Source: an uncultured virus (IMG/VR IMGVR_UViG_3300009678_000003)
Lineage: Duplodnaviria > Heunggongvirae > Uroviricota > Caudoviricetes
Strand: one strand, 5' to 3'
Length of the DNA stretch: 20,000 bases
Virus record (IMG/VR): IMGVR_UViG_3300009678_000003
A program made the position numbers and the translations under genes. Position 1 is the first letter of the stretch; every line of letters starts with the position of its first letter. Positions 5,868 through 20,000 of the stretch are shown one piece after another. A model generated the notes under the pieces. That model was given only the letters and a program-made list of their open reading frames with translations, did not search any database and had not been told where the DNA came from.

Positions 5868-7802
5868 ATGCCCTGTCCTCCAGAGCTAGTCAATTACCTC
5901 ATCGTTCAAATCGCCAACGACGATACCTTTGCAGTCGTTGACGAAAGAATCTTTCCGGCAGCGCTCACGGATTTTCCCGTCGATGGTACAGCTGGCACAA
6001 GCCGCTGGGTGCGCTCTAAGTGGCGGCGGACGACTGACCCGCTCGAAGAAAGCGGCTGGTCGAATGTATTGCAGCTCGATTTCCCAAGGATACAGGCATA
6101 CGAAATTGAATCGCTGCCTGACCCTGCCGGACTCTCTTACCCGCTTGTACCAGTCATCAGTTGCGTACTGGGCTGGAGCGAGTTCATTGAGTTGGTTCTC
6201 ATCGCGAATCAAGCAGGCGAGGGCTGCGTCGTTGGCTACGGAGTTGGACTAGCTGCGACTGGACGCTCCTGGATCGACATTACAAACACGTCGACCGATC
6301 CTGCGGTCCGCATTGTCGATGCTGCCCTCATCATCGGAGAGCCTGGCGCAATCGTAGATTGTCACGGCGATAAGACAATTGCAGCTGGCTGGCATCCTGG
6401 CGATGACTTTCTCGCGGCCAGTTCGATGCCATCGCCCGTATCGAATTACGCACCTTACTTGGCAACGCCTCCGGTGGCCGATATCTCCGGTCCAAGTGGG
6501 GTGATCAAATACTACGGCACCCCTGTCACTCCACCTGCAGGCGTGGTATTTGGGAATCCCGATTTCTTCTGCCTGTCGCAGCGCTGCCCCGAGGCTGGCG
6601 ATCCTGGCTGGAACTCAGCGTATCGGTGTATCAATGTCTTTGACGTTGCGCGCACGCCAGCGGGTTTCGATCTACCGGGAGGCGGGAACTATTTCGTCAA
6701 GGTAGATGCAGGGATTTGTCGAGCCTTCGGAATCTATCTAAGTGCTGGTCACACGATCTTCCCTCCATTCATGGGAGTATCGATCGGGACCGGGCACTAC
6801 GCCGGCTTCACTCAGGTTGGCTTTGTCTACGTCAGGTTTTCCACGGGGTTCTCCATCTTCCAGCCTGCCGTGGATATGGGGCCTCAGCTCGGTGGGATCC
6901 AACTCCTGCCGGCGACGACTCCACCGAATCTGCAACTGGATGATTTCTTTGTTTTTGCTTCGGAGACTCCCTTTGCGGCGGATTTAGGCGGGAGCCTCGG
7001 GCGCTGGGAGAACGCAGTAATCGAGAACTCGTTGCCAGCGGGCGTGAGCCTGGTAATGGTCTCGCGCTCGACAAATCATCTGGTCTCGAATCTTTCACAA
7101 GTCGCGCTCGATCCGGACGTCACCTATTACTTCCGTGTCGGCGCAAGACGCTTTCAAAACCTCGCGCAAACCCAGTTCCTCTATTCCGCAACACTCTCTG
7201 AGCAGGCCTTTGGGAAGCTTGGAAGCGCCCTGGCCTTGAATCGGGCCGTGGGTTCGGGTACGGCTGAAGGTATTGCTGCATCAGCCCACTGGAAAGCTCC
7301 TGTAGCGACTGTAGCCGATTTGCCAACGCCGGCCACGGTTGGTGACACTCGGTTAGTTCTGGATGAGCGGCTGATTTATAGCTTCGTCAATGGGCTATGG
7401 CGGCGTCCTGGCCTGCCAATTCTGCGAGTAGTGGGCGAGATCGTCTTTGGCGTTCAAACCATAGCCCTCGGCTCAAGCCGAGCCTATCGGCCCACGGTGC
7501 CCAAGGACATGCTCAATGGCGTCCTGACGGGCTGGTGCTTGCAGTGCGACACAGCAGGAAACGGCGATACCATATTCGACATCCACAAGAACGGCGTGAC
7601 GATCTTCACGAATCAGGCAAACCGGCCAAAGCTGGTGAACGCGCAAACGAAGGCGACCATGACAACCGCCGGGACAACGATTGACGTGACCTCGGTCGCG
7701 AGCGAAGACGATTTGACACTGGATATTGATGCAGTACCATCGACGGTGCCAGTGAAGGTGACGGCTATTCTCTATTTCCGGCAGGACGTGAGGGAGATTT
7801 AG
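5868..7802 (+). CDS. Tail fibre/tail-associated protein with FN3-like segments
   Basis: ATG at 5868, 1 nt after the upstream stop. FN3-like motifs (RWVRSKW...ESGWSN; LDPDVTYYFRVGA). The motifs WKAPVATVADLP...GDTRLV and DIHKNGVTIF...DLTLDID resemble phage fibre C-termini. Confidence 0.7.
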   Translation: MPCPPELVNYLIVQIANDDTFAVVDERIFPAALTDFPVDGTAGTSRWVRSKWRRTTDPLEESGWSNVLQLDFPRIQAYEIESLPDPAGLSYPLVPVISCVLGWSEFIELVLIANQAGEGCVVGYGVGLAATGRSWIDITNTSTDPAVRIVDAALIIGEPGAIVDCHGDKTIAAGWHPGDDFLAASSMPSPVSNYAPYLATPPVADISGPSGVIKYYGTPVTPPAGVVFGNPDFFCLSQRCPEAGDPGWNSAYRCINVFDVARTPAGFDLPGGGNYFVKVDAGICRAFGIYLSAGHTIFPPFMGVSIGTGHYAGFTQVGFVYVRFSTGFSIFQPAVDMGPQLGGIQLLPATTPPNLQLDDFFVFASETPFAADLGGSLGRWENAVIENSLPAGVSLVMVSRSTNHLVSNLSQVALDPDVTYYFRVGARRFQNLAQTQFLYSATLSEQAFGKLGSALALNRAVGSGTAEGIAASAHWKAPVATVADLPTPATVGDTRLVLDERLIYSFVNGLWRRPGLPILRVVGEIVFGVQTIALGSSRAYRPTVPKDMLNGVLTGWCLQCDTAGNGDTIFDIHKNGVTIFTNQANRPKLVNAQTKATMTTAGTTIDVTSVASEDDLTLDIDAVPSTVPVKVTAILYFRQDVREI

Positions 7803-8038
7803 GCGGATCCGGTGGACTTGGCTTTTGCATTCTTGCGCGGCCTCCCAGGCTTGCGTTCTTTGACTTTCTTGAGATCAGATTCCTTGATAGTCCATACGGG
7901 GCCGAAGCGAGATGCAGGAAGCCTGCCAGCTTCTATCAGAGCAACGACTCGGCGCTGAGTAACCCCGAGGCGTGCAGCGGCGTCGGCAGTTGTAAGATTG
8001 CGTCCCATCGCGCGGGCGGCTTCGGATAGTTTGGTCAT
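7799..8038 (-). CDS. Excisionase/MerR-like (HTH_17-type) DNA-binding protein
   Basis: LTTADAAARLGVTQRRVVALIEAGRLPASRFGPVWTIKESDL, followed by a basic GRPRK tail. Confidence 0.85.
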   Translation of the reverse strand: MTKLSEAARAMGRNLTTADAAARLGVTQRRVVALIEAGRLPASRFGPVWTIKESDLKKVKERKPGRPRKNAKAKSTGSA

Positions 8039-8478
8039 TAGAGGATCTCAGTCATCTTTCCAAGAAACTTTTGCTTTCGTTCGCACTCGTGCTCTAAGTC
8101 CACAATGACAAGATAGCCGCTCTTATAGACAGAGCTGTTACGTGCCATCTCTGCAACACTGCCTCCAGATTCTTGATCGGAGAAGCCAAGATGGATCTCC
8201 TCACAATCAATTGGCCACAGCCATTTTCTCCATCGAACTTCATATCGATCCAAAGATTTAATTGGGTGGAGTAAAAGCCAGTCCTTTACTCTCCGATAAA
8301 AATCTTGATCGCATGGAATAGGAAGCAGCCGTTCGACCTGAGCTATTATCATTGTCGCTAGTTGTAGTTCCAATTTGAGGTATTCAGCGTGCTCCTTCAT
8401 AGATTGGTGAGCCGATTCCCAATCAGAGATACGCGCCTCAAGCCGGACAATTTGACCAACAAGGTCGGTGTATTCCAT
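8038..8478 (-). CDS. Hypothetical protein
   Basis: 146-aa ORF with a GAGGAGG RBS upstream and a TAATG overlap with the HTH gene. Confidence 0.7.
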   Translation of the reverse strand: MEYTDLVGQIVRLEARISDWESAHQSMKEHAEYLKLELQLATMIIAQVERLLPIPCDQDFYRRVKDWLLLHPIKSLDRYEVRWRKWLWPIDCEEIHLGFSDQESGGSVAEMARNSSVYKSGYLVIVDLEHECERKQKFLGKMTEIL

Positions 8479-8505
8479 GTCTCACGCCTCCTCACAGCGA
8501 TTTGC

Positions 8506-8830
8506 TTAATCCCAATACGGTTCAGCAATCTTTGAAGGAACGCGCCCGTTGGCGCGCTCGATGTATTCTCGACGATAGGCACTGGAGGCGGCAATGCTCA
8601 CGCCCTGCTGATGGACAGATTCTAGACCGAGCAAACTAGCAAGCTCGGTTCTATCCTGCTCACTCATGTAACCGTATTCACTGGCCTTTCGTGAGGTTGG
8701 GGAATCAATCTTGATCCATCCCCAAGAGGTTCCTTTGCCGCCCCTAACGCTCCACGTCTTTCCTGATCTCTGTTTCAGGGCTGACTTAATCTCTGCGATT
8801 GCTTCGTTTCTGTCTGTTCCGTCGGTCATT
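8506..8830 (-). CDS. Hypothetical protein (start probably MTDGTDRNE; a longer leaderless form from 8967 is possible)
   Basis: Strong RBS in AAGGAGAAACAACA-ATG at about 8829. The frame is also open back to the ATG at 8967. Confidence 0.7.
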
Positions 8831-8973
8831 GTTGTTTCTCCTTGTTGAGATTTGATCGCGTCGGCTTTCGCTGCGCTGCCACCGAAGAGGCAACCGGACC
8901 CGTTAGCAGTTAGCTCGTTGTCTCGTTTCCTATCGGTGGCCCGCTGTGCTTTGCCGTCGTTCATCATGGGAAT

Positions 8974-9002
8974 ACTATACTTTCGTCGGAATAGATTGTC
9001 AA
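8974..9002 (-). promoter_or_regulatory. Near-consensus sigma70-type promoter driving the reverse cassette
   Basis: On the - strand: TTGACA (9002-8997), a 17-nt spacer, then TATAGT (8979-8974). Predicted +1 is about 8967. Confidence 0.85.
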
Positions 9003-9042
9003 CAGAAATCGACGCTAGGAACGAATTATTTTTGCTTCCGTC

Positions 9043-9055
9043 TAACCTATTGATT
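9043..9055. promoter_or_regulatory. IHF-consensus-like site
   Basis: TAACCTATTGATT matches YAANNNNTTGATW exactly and lies about 40 bp upstream of the -35 box. Confidence 0.45.
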
Positions 9056-9068
9056 CTTTAGGAGCAAC

Positions 9069-10076
9069 ATGGCGCGAGTAGGAGACTGGGGATTCGAGGG
9101 CGGGCATGACTTGATGTTTTCCTCAATGGCCGGTATCTCGGTCACAACCCTTGGGGCGATCACCGGTCAATATGGAGTCCAAGGCAATCTCGGTCCGGGT
9201 GGTGCTGCCGCTGTGCTGCCGTTTCCGGCTGCTTTGTCTGAGTTCTTTATCGGGCTAAACTTACGGTCTACGAGCTACAGCACTACTGGGGCGCTGTTTG
9301 GATGGCGCAAGACGGGTACGATACTTGGCAGCATCCGGCAGACCGCTGGCAGGCAATTAACGCTCTACGTTGGCGCTTCTCTGGTCGCGACGGGAACGAA
9401 GGTCTTAGTAGACAATCAGACTTACAATTTCCAACTCGGCATCAAGATCCACGATTCCACCGGCTACGTTACCCTAAAGGTCGATGGCGTCACCGATATC
9501 AATTACACGGCGTCGGACACGAAGCCCGGAGCCGATGCAGATGTCAACGAGTGGCAGTTAGGGAACGCGGGCATCGCAGCCGGAGGCGGAATCGGGAACT
9601 ATGACGACCTAATCCTGAACGACACGACCGGCGGCGTTAATAATTCATTCCCAGGAATCCGCTATTTCTACCCGGCTCTTCCAACCGGCGACAGCGCAAC
9701 AAATAACGCTTTGTCTCGCTCTACTGGCTCAAACGGCTGGGCCCTGGTCGATGAACGGCCGCACAACATCACGGATTATGTATTCAGTGGCACCAATGGC
9801 CAGCAGCAAGGATTCACCCATGCGGCCTCGGGCGTGCCGGCTGCCAGCATCGTCAAGTCTGTCAGGTTCGATTACATCGCCTGGATGATCTCTTCGGGTC
9901 AACTCAAGGTAGGCACGAAGTCTGGCTCGACCGAGGACTTGAGCGCGGCTCAAAGTCTCGGGATTTCTCCAACCGTGCTGACGGCCTATTACGAAAACGA
10001 TCCTGACACCGCCGCGGCCTGGGCCAGCATTGCCGCCGCCGATGCGGCTGAATCCCTGGTTGAGTCGGTCATCTAG
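9069..10076 (+). CDS. Putative virion structural protein (beta-sandwich/lectin-like)
   Basis: 335 aa, G/T/S-rich, with an AGGAG RBS. Motifs such as VTLKVDGV and YDDLILNDTTG...W. Located at the end of the tail module. Confidence 0.65.
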   Translation: MARVGDWGFEGGHDLMFSSMAGISVTTLGAITGQYGVQGNLGPGGAAAVLPFPAALSEFFIGLNLRSTSYSTTGALFGWRKTGTILGSIRQTAGRQLTLYVGASLVATGTKVLVDNQTYNFQLGIKIHDSTGYVTLKVDGVTDINYTASDTKPGADADVNEWQLGNAGIAAGGGIGNYDDLILNDTTGGVNNSFPGIRYFYPALPTGDSATNNALSRSTGSNGWALVDERPHNITDYVFSGTNGQQQGFTHAASGVPAASIVKSVRFDYIAWMISSGQLKVGTKSGSTEDLSAAQSLGISPTVLTAYYENDPDTAAAWASIAAADAAESLVESVI

Positions 10077-10078
10077 CG

Positions 10079-10258
10079 ATGGCGGAAGTAGATCTCACAC
10101 AGGTAATCAAGAATCTCGAAGTTGAGGTTAACGAGCTTCGGCTGACTCAGGTAATAAAGCATCTTGAAGTCGAGTCGCTGCAAATCAATCTGACGCAGGT
10201 GATGAAGACTATTGAAGTTGAGATCCCTTTCGACGATGACTTTGCTTGGGTGTCCTAG
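10079..10258 (+). CDS. 59-aa protein with three LTQVxKxLEVE repeats (absent from the ORF track)
   Basis: MAEVDLTQVIKNLEVEVNELRLTQVIKHLEVESLQINLTQVMKTIEVEIPFDDDFAWVS-stop. It fills the gap between 10076 and 10270. Confidence 0.8.
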   Translation: MAEVDLTQVIKNLEVEVNELRLTQVIKHLEVESLQINLTQVMKTIEVEIPFDDDFAWVS

Positions 10259-10269
10259 GGGAAAAGGAA

Positions 10270-10749
10270 ATGACATTCGTACTCGGAAAACGGTCGAGGG
10301 CAGAACTGGTCGGTGTCCATCCTGACCTAGTCCGTGTCGTCAAGCGTGCTTTGGAGTTAACCACCGTTGACTTTGCGGTCCATGACGGCAAGCGCACACC
10401 AGAAGAACAAAAACGTTTGGTAGAGGCCGGGGCATCGCAGACTATGAAATCTCGGCACCTGACTGGACACGCCGTTGACCTCGTGCCCGTGATCAATGGC
10501 AAGCTGCGCTGGGAGTGGCCGCCAATCTATACGATTGCCCGAGCCATGAAGCAGGCAGCGGTTGAACTGTCCATCCCGATCCGCTGGGGCGGGTGTTGGA
10601 GCAGGCTGAACACCCTTGACGAGCCGCTAGAGGATCGGGTTGCGGATTACGTTCAGACGCGGCGAGCACTAGGGAAGAGCTCCTTTCTGGACGGCCCCCA
10701 TATGGAGCTGCCGATTGATTCCTATCCTGAAACCCTAACGGGGAGTTAA
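10270..10749 (+). CDS. Endolysin, peptidase M15 family (L-Ala-D-Glu peptidase-like)
   Basis: LVGVHPDL, GKRTPEEQ, SRHLTGHAVDL (HxxxxxxD zinc ligands), IRWGGCW and DGPHMEL. AAGGA RBS before the ATG at 10270. Confidence 0.92.
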   Translation: MTFVLGKRSRAELVGVHPDLVRVVKRALELTTVDFAVHDGKRTPEEQKRLVEAGASQTMKSRHLTGHAVDLVPVINGKLRWEWPPIYTIARAMKQAAVELSIPIRWGGCWSRLNTLDEPLEDRVADYVQTRRALGKSSFLDGPHMELPIDSYPETLTGS

Positions 10750-10753
10750 AGAC

Positions 10754-10951
10754 ATGGCAGTGAATTCAGATATCGCCCACAGAGTATTGGACATACTGTC
10801 AGTGATCCTGATCACCGGCGTCGCCTACCTAGCACTGAGACTGACCGCCACAAAGTTTGATTCTGGAGAAAATCTGACCGTTTTGGCGCTGTTCTTAGGC
10901 GCCGTGGCAGACAAGCTCGGATTCCGGCTCTTGCACGGCAAGGTAAAATGA
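10754..10951 (+). CDS. Holin-like small protein with two transmembrane segments
   Basis: Two hydrophobic segments and a basic C-terminus. Immediately follows the endolysin. Confidence 0.55.
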   Translation: MAVNSDIAHRVLDILSVILITGVAYLALRLTATKFDSGENLTVLALFLGAVADKLGFRLLHGKVK

Positions 10952-16206: not shown

Positions 16207-17022
16207 TTAGGGCGTAGGCTTCCGCTTCGCTGCGAGGAAAGCGGAGATCTGTCTACCAACGCGCAGCTCTCCATAGCTTGTAGACGCATCATCACCTTTG
16301 CAGTAAATGTGCGCTTGGCACAGCAACCCAACCGCCTCGTCCAGCCTGCGTTGCAGGGCGTGAATAGTCGTATCACAAGCGTTGTGTTCGGCCTTAAACT
16401 TCTCATCCTTGCCATCGGATTTGAAGAAGGCAGACTGCTCGTCAAGAATTTCACCAAGCTGACGCTGGCTCTGGGCGAGCTGCTGCGCTAGGTCGTCTCG
16501 TTCGTACCGAGTAACCTGTAATTGACCTAGCAAAGACAACCCTTCTGAGATAGCTCTGTTAGTCAGTGACGAGTCTTCAGCTTCTTGATATGAACTGAGC
16601 CTGTCCGCCCCGCCTTCAGATTGTGCTGTGGTCCCGAGCCGTTCTTCAGGCGTTGTTTCTGCTGGCGTCTCACCCTTCTGGTTCTTATTTTTGAACGCAT
16701 AGCCAACCCGCTTTTTGCGTACCTCATCGTCACGCTGTTTTGTCATCCCAACCAAATCCCTCTTCAGCCACCCAATCTCCTCCCGCGCCTGCTGGAGTTC
16801 GGCGGCAAGCGCATCCAATCTCTGCTGTCTGTCAGCCATTCGAATCTTTGCGTCATCTACGATCTCTTGAAGCCGCTCGTTTTCGGCTTGGAGCACGGCG
16901 AAGTCGATGGTGTAGGCCGCTTTGAGCAACTTTCCCATCCACTTGCTCGGACAGTTAAAATCGTTGTGTAAGTTAATACCAACGGCTGCTTCAATCGCTT
17001 CCTCACTCGGCTCATTTGGCAT
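16207..17022 (-). CDS. Hypothetical coiled-coil phage protein
   Basis: 271 aa, AAGGAG RBS, TAATG coupling to the upstream gene. Confidence 0.7.
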   Translation of the reverse strand: MPNEPSEEAIEAAVGINLHNDFNCPSKWMGKLLKAAYTIDFAVLQAENERLQEIVDDAKIRMADRQQRLDALAAELQQAREEIGWLKRDLVGMTKQRDDEVRKKRVGYAFKNKNQKGETPAETTPEERLGTTAQSEGGADRLSSYQEAEDSSLTNRAISEGLSLLGQLQVTRYERDDLAQQLAQSQRQLGEILDEQSAFFKSDGKDEKFKAEHNACDTTIHALQRRLDEAVGLLCQAHIYCKGDDASTSYGELRVGRQISAFLAAKRKPTP

Positions 17023-17324
17023 TAGCTCGCTCCTTGCGCTTCTACAGTGGATTCAATCTTCTCATCAACAAGGACTTGGCAAACCCTGACACACTCATCA
17101 CAAATGTAAGCTGACTTACCAGCCACAAGTTTACGAACCTCATTTCTCCACTTTGAACAAAACGAGCAGCACATCTCGGCTGGAAGGCTTCGCTCGAAAC
17201 CTTCTAGTACCTTGAACGGGATAGTGACATCGCCAAAAGTTACGAATGCCAAGCCTGATGGAGAAATTCCATTCAAGGTCCCGCAAATAGATCCATACCA
17301 AACTTTGTCGCCTACTCGCATCAT
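17022..17324 (-). CDS. Protein with a ClpX-type C4 zinc-binding domain
   Basis: [30 protein letters not shown] matches the ClpX N-terminal zinc-binding pattern CSFCGK...V.KL.AG...YICDEC. There is no AAA+ domain. Confidence 0.85.
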
Positions 17325-18065: not shown

Positions 18066-18249
18066 CGGTAAGCCTCGTCTGGGATGTGTACCGCAGCACC
18101 TTGCCGCAGAAGCAGCAGAAGCGCATCTTGTTGTCTCGCGGCGTGCCTTCGATGATCTCGTAGCTGCCGCCGCATGAAGTCTGCCACACGCCATCCTCGT
18201 CCTGGGTCCAGCGGCATTCTTTAACTTCGTCATTCATGGTAAGGGTCAT
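18058..18249 (-). CDS. Small zinc-ribbon protein (C.W...W.TSCG...FCCFCGK)
   Basis: The ATG at 18249 overlaps the upstream TGA. The Cys pattern is typical of small phage proteins. Confidence 0.65.
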   Translation of the reverse strand: MTLTMNDEVKECRWTQDEDGVWQTSCGGSYEIIEGTPRDNKMRFCCFCGKVLRYTSQTRLTDD

Positions 18250-18437
18250 CTCTCCCAATCTTCCACGCCGTCCTGGTTGCAATTTGGGCAATTGATCTCT
18301 CCATCTCCGTGCATACAGTAACCAGCGCCCCGGCATAGATCGTCGATGCAGACAACAAGGAATCTTGCCCCACCACATTGGTAGCATCCACTATTCCCGC
18401 AAAACTCGTCGTCATAATCAAACTCTTCGTCGCTCAT
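18246..18437 (-). CDS. Small Cys-rich acidic protein
   Basis: 63 aa with CYQCGG...CIDDLC...CMHG...CPNC. Confidence 0.65.
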   Translation of the reverse strand: MSDEEFDYDDEFCGNSGCYQCGGARFLVVCIDDLCRGAGYCMHGDGEINCPNCNQDGVEDWER

Positions 18438-18676
18438 GCTGAGGGACCATTAAGCCATCAAAACACGCTACGATGAACCAATCAAACAGTGATTGAACAC
18501 GATTGGAGCGTTGATCCTATTAGTTTTCAACACTCGAAAAAGTCTTGCCGCTACCTTGACACGGTAGAGGCCACGTGTTCGATCCACGTCGCGCCCACCA
18601 ATCTTTCAATAAGTTACGAGCACTTTCAAAAACCGCTAAAAAGTCAGGGCATCTCTACGGGACCATCTCGAAACAA

Positions 18677-19335
18677 AGGCCGCTCGTTTTTCATGGGTCT
18701 ATCTACTTGCGTGGCTCGCTCCATCGGGTTGGCGCTATCTTTGACCTTGGCTCGCTCGGGGTTGTTGGAGCTATCCCCCTTTATGGCTCGCTCCACCAAT
18801 TTGGTTCTGTCCATATCGTTGGCTCGCTCGCCTTGGATGTTGCTATCCTGAGCGGTGGCTCACTCTTGAATGATGGTCAACTCTGGTTTCGTGGTTCGCT
18901 CTGAAACCCTGTATCTATCTCGCTGTATGGCTCGCTCGTCAATAGTGAATCTATCGCATCACGTGGCTCGCTCTTCTACATTGTTACTGTTCTATCTCTA
19001 TGGCTCACTCCAGTGGCTTGGTTCTGTCGGCATACCTGGCTCGCTCCCGTGGGGTGATTCTATCGCTTCTCTTGGCTCGCTCAAACTGCTTGGTTCTATC
19101 CTCTTAGACGGCTCGCTCCCTAGTTTTGGCACTGTCGGGGAGGGTGGCTCGCTCTCTGGAATTGTTTCTTTCCGAGCTCATGGCTCGCTCTTGTTTCTTG
19201 GACCTATCAAGCGCCTTGGCTCGCTCCCTTCTCATGGTTCTCTTCCTGAGGATGGCTCGCTCCCATATGAATGGTTCACTCCTAACCTCTGGCTCGCTCA
19301 CCTTAAATGGTTCTATCCCGCTGTGTGGCTGACTT
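18677..19335 (-). repeat. TIGR-like (tandem interspaced guide RNA) dual-repeat array, 18 units of 36 bp
   Basis: On the + strand, TGGCTCGCTC or a 1-nt variant starts at 18712, 18748, 18784, 18820, 18856, 18892, 18928, 18964, 19001, 19037, 19073, 19109, 19145, 19181, 19217, 19253 and 19290, with degenerate copies at 18677 and 19326. A second, looser repeat (consensus TGGTTCTATC) lies midway in each unit. Unique spacers of about 8 nt separate the repeats. Confidence 0.93.
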
Positions 19336-19999
19336 CCGGCTCAATCATGTGCGCATGTCCAAGGATAGCAATCGGGTAAGGCTTTGGCGGTGCGACTCCA
19401 AAGTGGTTCTGATACATGATGCCGTGGAGGTGTGCTAGAAACAGTTTTGTTGAGTAACGCTCCGCTCTTTGCTCAATCTGAGCTGGCGGCAACTTCACTT
19501 GAGAGTAAGCTTTGAACGCGTCTGTGCTCTTGTCGATTTTCTTCTTTACCAAAATTGCGTCGGCCTGGTCTTTGAATTCGAGGCGGTCGTTCTTCTCAAC
19601 TTCTTGATTCTTGCGCTGTCGATAGATTTTCCCGTAAAAGCAACTGTCTCGACCTGAGTTCTTCATAAAGCTTTGGCCGATTAGCCAGCAGAGCCGTTTT
19701 AGGCTGGCATTCCAAGGGCGCTTTTCTCCTTTGTTCCATTGCTGTCCTGGCACCAAGCCAGCGAAAGACCAGATGTGTCCAACCGTCGGGGCCTTTGTGA
19801 TGTCAATATTGGAGATCAGCCCTGCTGTCAAAACCGGCCCTATCCCAACCACACTGAGAGCCCATTGACCGTTGACATCAGATTCACAATAGGAGAGCAA
19901 GGCGCGTTTGATTTGACCCTCCAAGCCTTCGGACTTAGAGAAGAGCCATTCAAGCACAGCGCACGGTTCTCCTTCCTTTGCCATCGTTCGAACCTGATG
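19313..19999 (-). CDS. tas: Tas-like Nop-domain protein (IS110-related RNA-binding fold), 5'-truncated by the window edge
   Basis: WALSVVGIGPVLTAGLISNIDI...GHIWSFAGLVPG...PWNASLKRLCW...YGKIYRQRK...RAERY..KLFLAHL resembles the IS110 C-terminal/Nop fold. There is no SG catalytic motif after AGLxP. The frame stays open to the window end (HQVRT-MAKE). The gene abuts the dual-repeat array. Confidence 0.85.
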   Translation of the reverse strand, partial: HQVRTMAKEGEPCAVLEWLFSKSEGLEGQIKRALLSYCESDVNGQWALSVVGIGPVLTAGLISNIDITKAPTVGHIWSFAGLVPGQQWNKGEKRPWNASLKRLCWLIGQSFMKNSGRDSCFYGKIYRQRKNQEVEKNDRLEFKDQADAILVKKKIDKSTDAFKAYSQVKLPPAQIEQRAERYSTKLFLAHLHGIMYQNHFGVAPPKPYPIAILGHAHMIEPEVSHTAG

Positions 20000-20000
20000 A

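What the first reader, a model, noticed from the sequence alone, without database searches (positions are those of the whole stretch)
18677..20000. Phage-encoded TIGR-Tas-like RNA-guided system: IS110/Nop-like gene plus an 18-unit dual-repeat guide array
Seen in the sequence: 18 tandem units, 16 of about 36 bp and two of 37 bp. On the - strand each reads AGCCA-[spacer A]-GATAGAACCA-[spacer B]-GAGCG. All 36 short spacers differ. The array lies directly downstream of, and co-oriented with, an IS110/Nop-like gene. Established knowledge: TIGR arrays alternate an edge and a loop repeat with two short spacers and are processed to about 36-nt guides. These guides are bound by Nop-domain Tas proteins (TasA, TasR, TasH) related to IS110 and box C/D snoRNP proteins, and are common in phages. 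Inference: this is a phage TIGR-Tas locus that may target competing mobile elements or host DNA. It is neither a CRISPR array nor a simple VNTR.
Basis: partly seen in the sequence, partly recalled or inferred. Interest (0 to 1): 0.96.

Follow-up and report, generated by a model that had tools for sequence, protein, structure and literature searches.

The report
Known phage TIGR-TasA guide-RNA locus
This is a real phage-borne TIGR array with its nuclease-free TasA protein, an RNA-guided DNA-binding system, but this exact protein and contig are already listed in the catalogue of the paper that discovered the family.

Summary
On the - strand, 18 units of 36 nt (two of 37) read GAGCGAGCCA, 8-nt spacer, GA(T)AG-NNN-CA, 8/9-nt spacer. 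They start inside the 3' end of a co-oriented gene and end in a half edge repeat.

The gene is cut by the window. The full protein has 275 aa (P0002). It scores 198 bits against NCBIfam TIGR_Tas_endo (cut-off 100). Its closest folds are the solved TasH and TasR structures. It keeps the Tyr/His pair that processes pre-tigRNA in SpTasH. It has no HNH, RuvC or DEDD domain, so it is a TasA.

The source contig carries two further units in the tasA leader, giving 20 guides. Of 80 related viral contigs, 78 carry the same gene-plus-array design.

This protein, on this contig, is in Table S1 of Faure et al. 2025.

The most likely mechanism is guide-directed DNA binding or repression without cleavage. 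Targets remain unknown: I found no self-matches in 25.3 kb and no excess of matches in 1.08 Mb of sibling phage DNA.

The parts
18681..19335 (-). Dual-repeat TIGR array. It holds 18 units (edge GAGCGAGCCA, 8-nt spacer A, loop GA(T)AG-NNN-CA, 8/9-nt spacer B). It opens with a degenerate or 5'-truncated edge (AAGTCAGCCA, 19335-19326) and closes with a 3' half edge GAGCG (18685-18681). The predicted mature guide is AGCCA-spacerA-loop-spacerB-GAGCG, 36 nt.
   Evidence: All spacers are distinct. The same design occurs in 78 of 80 related viral loci.
19313..20000 (-). The 3' 228 codons of tasA. The full gene is 275 codons and continues to window-equivalent 20140 (L083 9359-10186). The protein is a solo Nop-domain Tas protein without a nuclease domain. 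The Tyr255/His262 processing pair is encoded within the window part.

Best explanation
This is a dual-repeat TIGR-TasA module carried in the early or replication-side operon of a tailed phage.

Shown from the sequence:
- A 275-aa Nop-domain protein without any nuclease domain is flanked by 2 TIGR units in its leader and 18 units that begin inside its 3' end, all on the same strand.
- The edge and loop repeats share a GA start (box D position) and a C-A end (box C position).

Inferred from characterised relatives:
- The gene and arrays are transcribed as one precursor.
- TasA binds the repeats as a dimer and cuts each edge repeat in the middle (GAGCG|AGCCA) with its conserved Tyr255/His262 pair, yielding twenty 36-nt tigRNAs.
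- Each tigRNA directs the TasA dimer to a 16-17-bp DNA site. Spacer A pairs with one strand and spacer B with the other.
- TasA has no nuclease, so the outcome is binding, meaning a block to transcription or replication, and not cleavage.

The biological targets (host genes, rival mobile elements or the phage's own genes) are unknown.
For: Array anatomy. The two extra upstream units, followed by AAGGAG and the ATG.

Protein identity:
- NCBIfam NF052498 TIGR_Tas_endo scores 198.4 bits (cut-off 100) over residues 29-240.
- phmmer hits to SpTasH (21kl, E 7e-10) and TaTasR (9mty, E 1e-9) begin only at about their residue 123. The N-terminal nuclease part of those proteins therefore has no counterpart here.
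- The AlphaFold model has pLDDT 90 and pTM 0.85 and is all-helical. The top 10 Foldseek PDB hits are TasH/TasR chains, followed by IS621.
- The alignment places P0002 Y255 and H262 on the SpTasH Tyr and His seven residues apart. These are named Y289/H296 as catalytic for pre-tigRNA processing in PMC13421893 (passages). H262 is invariant and Y255 is at least 90% conserved in 34 homologues.
- Pfam finds no HNH, RuvC or DEDD domain.

Family: 78 of 80 related viral loci have a 36-nt array next to the gene. The flanking genes are not shared with this phage.

Literature:
- TIGR definition, 36-nt processing and tandem-spacer targeting: PMC12045711, sections read.
- TasA as a repressor without cleavage: bioRxiv 10.64898/2026.09.09.750476, sections read.

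The same array is present unchanged in a second assembly that is 99.97% identical over 10 kb.
Against: - I could obtain no expression or processing data.
- Dimer formation could not be tested.
- No terminator-like site follows the array on the - strand, and no convincing promoter was found.
- The loop repeat is unusually degenerate: 2 of 18 match the consensus exactly and 6 of 18 lack the full CCA. Some units may therefore bind poorly.
- No target was found. In 25.3 kb of the phage's own DNA there was no match with 0 or 1 mismatch. The single 2-mismatch match is within chance, and control geometries gave 2.
- Repression by TasA was shown for a stem-loop-type TasA from another lineage, not for this dual-repeat phage clade.
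Confidence: 0.85

Rival explanations
1. TasA is only the targeting subunit, and a separately encoded nuclease is recruited to cut the bound DNA. The system would then destroy rival elements instead of silencing them.
For: A VRR-NUC protein and an HNH-like protein are encoded 3-4 kb upstream on the same strand. HNH genes are the largest neighbour of tasA in 7 of the 140 neighbour ORFs scanned in relatives.
Against: None of the 14 upstream or 7 downstream neighbour proteins of this locus recurs next to tasA in the 80 relatives, apart from 1-2 distant hits to the methylase and the VRR-NUC protein. There is therefore no conserved partner. Faure et al. report no clear association of TasA with other proteins apart from an occasional ParB-like gene. 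HNH genes are common in phage genomes in any case (my own knowledge).
Confidence: 0.07
2. The guides serve the phage's own life cycle. Either they regulate phage genes, or the DNA bend made by TasA helps integration or excision at the neighbouring attP-like site. They would not be used against other DNA.
For: A tRNA-Val-like 3' half lies about 80 bp beyond the array end. Two relatives (L003, L014) have the order integrase, tRNA 3' half, TIGR array, tasA. Faure et al. raise TasA as a possible RNA-guided aid to integrases.
Against: None of the 20 guides matches the tRNA-like piece, its flanks or anything else in the 25.3 kb examined at 0 or 1 mismatch. No integrase was found in that 25.3 kb. Only 3 of 81 loci show the tRNA piece, and 4 of 80 relatives have an integrase nearby. 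About 41.5 kb of the contig was not available to me.
Confidence: 0.1
3. The locus is a decaying remnant that no longer makes functional guides.
For: The loop repeats are degenerate. No terminator or clear promoter was detected.
Against: The reading frame is intact. The catalytic pair and 53 invariant columns of the family are kept. Of the 17 full edge repeats, 14 are exact. The array is identical in a second assembly. Table S1 lists the identical protein on 10 contigs.
Confidence: 0.04
4. The gene is an IS110-type RNA-guided transposase, or the repeats encode a repeat protein or form a CRISPR array.
For: There is a weak Transposase_20 match (20.9 bits against a cut-off of 21.3). A 169-aa stop-free + strand frame covers part of the array.
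Against: The IS110 equivalog scores 23.9 bits against a cut-off of 140, and there is no DEDD domain. The + strand frame has no Pfam match, and the two 37-nt units shift its register. Only 5 of 57 related arrays are open throughout in any frame. The repeats are 10 nt long, not 25-36 nt, and alternate between two kinds.
Confidence: 0.01

Closest known systems
Dual-repeat TIGR-TasA systems of phages (Faure et al. 2025, PMC12045711; e.g. FpTasA)
   Same: A solo Nop-domain protein with an adjacent co-oriented array of two alternating short repeats, two short spacers per 36-nt unit, and truncated edge repeats at both array ends. This very protein on this contig is in their Table S1.
   Different: Nothing categorical. 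This locus uses 10-nt repeats with 8-nt spacers (8+8, sometimes 8+9) instead of the commoner 9+9. It has units on both sides of the gene and an unusually variable loop repeat.
SpTasH of Salicola phage CGphi29 (PDB 9w03/9w04/21kl; PMC13421893)
   Same: It is phage-borne and uses 8+8-nt spacers (the Faure text gives 16 nt in all). The Nop fold is the best structural match (TM about 0.6). The Tyr-x6-His processing pair aligns.
   Different: SpTasH has an N-terminal HNH nuclease and cuts DNA. P0002 lacks that segment entirely. Sequence identity is about 20-29%.
TaTasR (PDB 9mty)
   Same: Nop domain plus coiled coil, 36-nt tigRNA, and tandem-spacer recognition of both DNA strands.
   Different: TaTasR has an N-terminal RuvC nuclease and 9+9-nt spacers. 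Its repeats start UG, whereas these start GA.
MbTasA / PlTasA (stem-loop TasA; bioRxiv 10.64898/2026.09.09.750476 and 10.64898/2026.08.11.744272)
   Same: Nuclease-free TasA. MbTasA was shown to bind DNA and to repress transcription reversibly.
   Different: [quoted passage not shown] This one is a dual-repeat type that keeps the loop.
IS110/IS621 bridge-RNA recombinases and archaeal Nop5 box C/D snoRNPs
   Same: A shared Nop-type RNA-binding domain. IS621 chains are the next fold hits after Tas, and there is a weak Transposase_20 match.
   Different: There is no DEDD or Ser catalytic part, no bridge RNA, and an array of guides in place of a single RNA. It is not a member of these families.

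Membership tests
Dual-repeat TIGR array | Two distinct alternating repeats of 8-12 nt separated by spacers of about 8-9 nt, in a unit of about 36 nt | tested here: met
   10-nt edge, 8-nt spacer, 10-nt loop and 8/9-nt spacer. There are 16 units of 36 nt and 2 of 37 nt. The definition was read in PMC12045711 section 4.
Dual-repeat TIGR array | Box C at the 3' end and box D at the 5' start of both repeats, matching between edge and loop | tested here: met
   Edges: 17 of 18 start GA and 17 of 18 end CCA. Loops: 16 of 18 start GA, 12 of 18 end CCA and 18 of 18 end CA. In relatives the endings change together in both repeats (CCA/CCA, CCG/CCG, CCC/CCC) in most arrays, but not in all: for example GATCGAGACA occurs with GAGAGAACCA.
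Dual-repeat TIGR array | [quoted passage not shown] | tested here: met
   The first edge keeps only AGCCA (AAGTCAGCCA). The array ends GAGCG and then diverges. The upstream 2-unit array shows the same pattern.
Dual-repeat TIGR array | Rho-independent terminator after the array (described as typical, not obligatory) | tested here: not met
   No terminator-like site on the - strand in 18200-20000.
Dual-repeat TIGR array | Transcribed and processed into 36-nt RNAs cut in the middle of the edge repeat | not testable with these tools
Tas protein, TasA subtype | Nop-domain Tas family membership | tested here: met
   NF052498 scores 198.4 bits against a cut-off of 100. The top 10 fold hits are TasH/TasR. 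The protein is listed in Table S1 of the discovery paper.
Tas protein, TasA subtype | No N-terminal HNH or RuvC nuclease domain | tested here: met
   TasH and TasR align only from about their residue 123. In the alignment the HNH segment of SpTasH faces a gap. No nuclease family is found in Pfam. Only 28 residues precede the family profile.
Tas protein, TasA subtype | Tyr/His pre-tigRNA processing pair of dual-repeat Tas proteins | tested here: met
   Y255 and H262 align to the SpTasH Tyr and His seven residues apart (residues named in PMC13421893). H262 is invariant and Y255 is at least 90% conserved among 34 homologues. In the model they lie in a low-confidence C-terminal loop, in keeping with the flexible loop described.
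Tas protein, TasA subtype | Dimer that binds one tigRNA and both DNA strands | not testable with these tools
TasParB-associated TasA loci | ParB-like gene in an operon with tasA | tested here: not met
   No ParB family among the 14 upstream and 7 downstream ORFs at E <= 0.001. None was found among 140 neighbour ORFs of the relatives at E <= 1e-5; these were 140 of 144 chosen, the four largest being left out for size.
IS110 family transposase | Whole-protein match to the IS110 model, with the DEDD catalytic domain | tested here: not met
   NF033542 scores 23.9 bits against a cut-off of 140. There is no DEDD_Tnp_IS110 hit, and Transposase_20 scores 20.9 bits, below its cut-off of 21.3.
CRISPR array | A single repeat of about 25-36 nt alternating with spacers of similar size, usually with cas genes | tested here: not met
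   The repeats are 10 nt long and of two kinds, and the spacers are 8-9 nt. No cas-like family was found among the neighbours scanned.

The most novel reading that the evidence does not exclude
This looks like a temperate phage. It has an attP-like tRNA 3' half about 80 bp from the array and two excisionase-like genes. The TIGR-TasA cassette would then lie at the very end of the prophage and act as a lysogenic-conversion module. Its 20 guides would silence host or rival-prophage genes, or assist integration, by RNA-guided binding without cutting. That would give TasA, the commonest Tas type, its first natural biological role.
Probability: 0.12. Interest if true: 0.6.

Novelty: already known. 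Interest (0 to 1): 0.22.

Why it matters
TIGR-Tas is a recently described class of compact RNA-guided DNA-targeting systems that need no PAM-like target motif. Its natural targets and biological roles are still open questions.

This locus is a clean, long example of the nuclease-free TasA type, with 20 guides, in a near-complete phage contig. It could serve as a test case for finding natural targets once the host is known. As a discovery it adds little: the protein is already in the founding catalogue, a curated NCBI model recognises it, and hundreds of viral contigs carry the same design.

Tried and rejected
1. Self-targeting. All 20 guides were searched in both opposite-strand geometries (rcA+gap+B and B+gap+rcA, gaps 0-2) and in two same-strand control geometries. 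The search space was the window plus 5.3 kb of extension, with the arrays masked. There was no match with 0 or 1 mismatch. With 2 mismatches there was one match in a real geometry and two in a control geometry. Counts at 3 mismatches were alike.

2. Sibling-phage targeting. I took 650 loop-flanking spacer pairs from arrays with a CGAG-type edge repeat and 706 edge-flanking control pairs. These were searched against 1.08 Mb of the 80 related loci plus the window, arrays masked.
- Exact matches for real pairs in the four geometries: 1, 3, 1, 0. For control pairs: 2, 0, 1, 1.
- One-mismatch matches for real pairs: 64, 61, 57, 60. For control pairs: 81, 67, 48, 53.
- There is no excess.

3. Shared guides. 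One of 37 parsed window spacers recurs in relatives, against 0.79 expected by chance.

4. Host identification through the tRNA-like piece. Exact searches with 47 nt and then 25 nt of it in 185,579 species genomes found nothing. ARAGORN and Rfam do not call it.

5. Near-identical phages. None was found in the isolate phage collection or in viral contigs by exact word or by the single protein.

6. Tools that gave nothing:
- No whole genome is held for this window, and L083 is not held as a record.

7. Conserved partner genes. None was found.

8. Target geometry. The order of the two spacer matches could not be fixed from the text I read, because the two statements on the cut position differ. Both orders were therefore tested.

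Full report
OBSERVATION

On the - strand, window 19335 to 18686 reads as 18 head-to-tail units. Each unit is a 10-nt edge repeat (GAGCGAGCCA), an 8-nt spacer, a 10-nt loop repeat (consensus GA-T-AG-NNN-CA) and an 8- or 9-nt spacer. Sixteen units are 36 nt and two are 37 nt.

The edge repeat occurs 20 times in the window at up to one mismatch, against 2.5 expected; 0 of 200 shuffles reach 20. Seventeen of these lie in the array at 36/37-nt spacing, and 14 of the 17 are exact. The first edge is degenerate (only AGCCA is kept). The array ends with the half edge GAGCG at 18685-18681.

Two of 18 are exact, 16 of 18 start GA, 12 of 18 end CCA and all end CA. All spacers differ. Tandem Repeats Finder misses the array.

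THE GENE

The co-oriented ORF at 19313-20000 is cut by the window end. The protein database holds the window's own full product, P0002, of 275 aa. An exact-word search of metagenome contigs returned the source contig (L083; L083 position = window position - 9954), a second assembly that is 99.97% identical (L081), and a short third one (L082). tasA is L083 9359-10186 (-). Its stop codon lies 23 nt inside the first array unit.

- P0002 scores 198.4 bits against NCBIfam NF052498 'TIGR-Tas system RNA-guided endonuclease' (cut-off 100) over residues 29-240. It scores only 23.9 bits against the IS110 model (cut-off 140).
- Among solved structures, SpTasH and TaTasR match by sequence, but only from about their residue 123 onward.
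- An AlphaFold model built from 34 homologues has pLDDT 90 and pTM 0.85 and is all-helical.
- Its ten best Foldseek hits in the PDB are TasH and TasR chains, followed by the IS621 bridge-RNA recombinase.
- In a direct alignment, the HNH segment of SpTasH faces a gap in P0002.
- Pfam finds no HNH, RuvC or DEDD domain, only a sub-threshold Transposase_20 match.

The protein is therefore a TasA, the nuclease-free type. The word 'endonuclease' in the NCBIfam name does not fit it.

P0002 Y255 and H262 align with the SpTasH Tyr and His seven residues apart. A 2026 NAR paper (PMC13421893, passages seen) names these residues, Y289 and H296, as catalytic for pre-tigRNA processing. H262 is invariant and Y255 nearly so in the 34 homologues. 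A 2026 preprint states that this Y/H loop is kept in dual-repeat systems and lost in stem-loop ones.

MORE OF THE SYSTEM

Just outside the window, the 139-nt leader of tasA holds two further complete units (L083 about 10289-10206, - strand). They have the same truncated-edge ends and are followed at once by AAGGAG and the ATG. The locus therefore encodes 20 guides, not 18.

CONTEXT

- The window encodes a major-tail-like protein, a 1300-aa central-fibre-like protein, an endolysin and an excisionase-like HTH protein.
- Upstream of tasA on the same strand lie small ORFs, a second HTH_17 protein, an N6/N4 DNA methyltransferase, a VRR-NUC protein and an HNH-like protein.

This is a tailed-phage genome, and tasA sits in a leftward block of early or replication-type genes.

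THE FAMILY

- At least 2365 proteins of 125-399 aa match P0002 at E <= 0.001.
- In 78 of the 80 best loci (51-60% identity), a 36-nt periodic array lies next to the gene, upstream, downstream or both.
- The arrays have the same GAxxGAxxCA / 8-nt / GAxxGAxxCA / 8-nt design and are almost always co-oriented with the gene.
- The neighbours of this locus do not recur beside tasA in those relatives: 0 to 2 of 80 loci for each of 28 proteins.
- The largest ORF on each side of the module in the relatives is most often a helicase, HNH, ERF, RecT, YqaJ, polymerase, primase or methylase gene. None is ParB-like. This scan covered 140 of 144 chosen ORFs, the four largest being left out for size.

The gene plus its arrays is thus a self-contained cassette that moves among phage replication modules.

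ALREADY IN PRINT

Table S1 (sheet ProteinInfo) of Faure et al. 2025, the paper that defined TIGR-Tas, lists this exact 275-aa sequence ten times. One of the ten rows (row 1797) carries the contig name of L083, with coordinates that fit tasA. A first search by contig name failed only because the table writes the names differently. The part of the file held here is cut, so I cannot say what else it lists.

The 2026 preprint reports 4,126 dual-repeat arrays annotated around those 20,096 tas loci.

MECHANISM

Shown here: the anatomy of the arrays, the Tas fold, the absence of a nuclease domain and the presence of the processing pair.

Inferred from the characterised relatives:
- Tas-dependent processing of the precursor in the middle of each edge repeat gives 36-nt tigRNAs. 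Here that would be AGCCA, spacer A, loop, spacer B, GAGCG: 5+8+10+8+5 nt.
- For proteins without an active nuclease, the outcome is tight binding and reversible transcriptional repression without cleavage. This was shown for MbTasA and two inactive TasR proteins.

TARGETS

The literature calls the natural targets an open problem. I tested what I could, using both possible opposite-strand orders of the two spacer matches, gaps of 0-2, and same-strand orders as controls.

- In 25.3 kb of the phage's own DNA no guide matches with 0 or 1 mismatch. The sole 2-mismatch match is within chance.
- Pooling 650 guides of related arrays against 1.08 Mb of related phage DNA gave no excess over control geometries or over wrongly paired spacers.
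- The window's spacers are not shared with relatives beyond chance.
- The host could not be identified, and about 41.5 kb of the contig was out of reach.

VERDICT

- The protein is a nuclease-free TasA.
- The gene runs off the window.
- Two more guides lie upstream of the gene.

The locus is an ordinary and already catalogued member of a family described in 2025. What remains unknown, for this locus as for the whole TasA class, is what the guides target.

Noticed in passing
window 18551-18600 (+): This is a 3' half of a tRNA-Val(GAC)-like sequence. It has an anticodon arm (CTACC-TTGACAC-GGTAG), a 5-nt variable loop, a T arm (ACGTG-TTCGATC-CACGT), an acceptor 3' strand, a discriminator A and CCA. 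There is no matching 5' half. It lies about 80 bp beyond the array end, on the opposite strand. It looks like a phage attP core. ARAGORN and Rfam do not call it. Neither the 47-nt stretch nor its 25-nt part has an exact match in 185,579 species genomes.
   Followed up: partly
L014 about 6989-10786 and L003 about 6189-10771: Two related phage contigs show the order tyrosine integrase, tRNA 3' half ending CCA, then (after 0-3 genes) TIGR array and tasA. Two further relatives (L004, L067) have an integrase as the largest ORF just beyond tasA. The regular expression used finds only perfect 5-bp T arms, so 3 of 81 loci is a lower bound.
   Followed up: partly
L083 about 10206-10289 (-), i.e. window-equivalent 20160-20243, outside the window: A two-unit TIGR array lies in the tasA leader and ends 17 nt before the ATG, just ahead of the AAGGAG. 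If TasA cuts its edge repeats, it would trim the leader of its own mRNA. This could be a feedback loop, which I did not test.
   Followed up: partly
related loci, e.g. L015/L032, L005/L017, L002/L008, L011/L016, L034/L036: Arrays of closely related phages share blocks of identical spacers interleaved with unshared blocks. In some pairs both ends are shared and the differences are internal. This is unlike the one-ended growth of CRISPR arrays. It fits internal loss, gain or exchange of units. My parser drops a few units at degenerate repeats, so the block edges are approximate.
   Followed up: partly
window 18686-19335 (-): Spacer B is more A/T-rich than spacer A (41% against 55% G+C; the window is 53.5%). 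Its first base is A or T in 17 of 20 units. The sample is small and no test was done.
   Followed up: no
window 18870-19379 (+): A 169-aa stop-free frame runs antisense to the array, with recurring GSL/ARS tripeptides from the edge repeat. It has no Pfam match, and its register is shifted by the 37-nt units. It is very likely an artefact of a 36-nt period.
   Followed up: yes
window 10200-10203: The only three differences between the window and the second assembly (L081) over 10 kb are clustered in 4 bases, in the stretch between the ORFs ending at 10076 and starting at 10246. The TIGR array is identical in both.
   Followed up: no
window 17022-17324 (-): A 100-aa phage protein carries a ClpX-type C4 zinc finger (PF06689, E 1.4e-13) in the block of small genes downstream of the array.
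   Followed up: no
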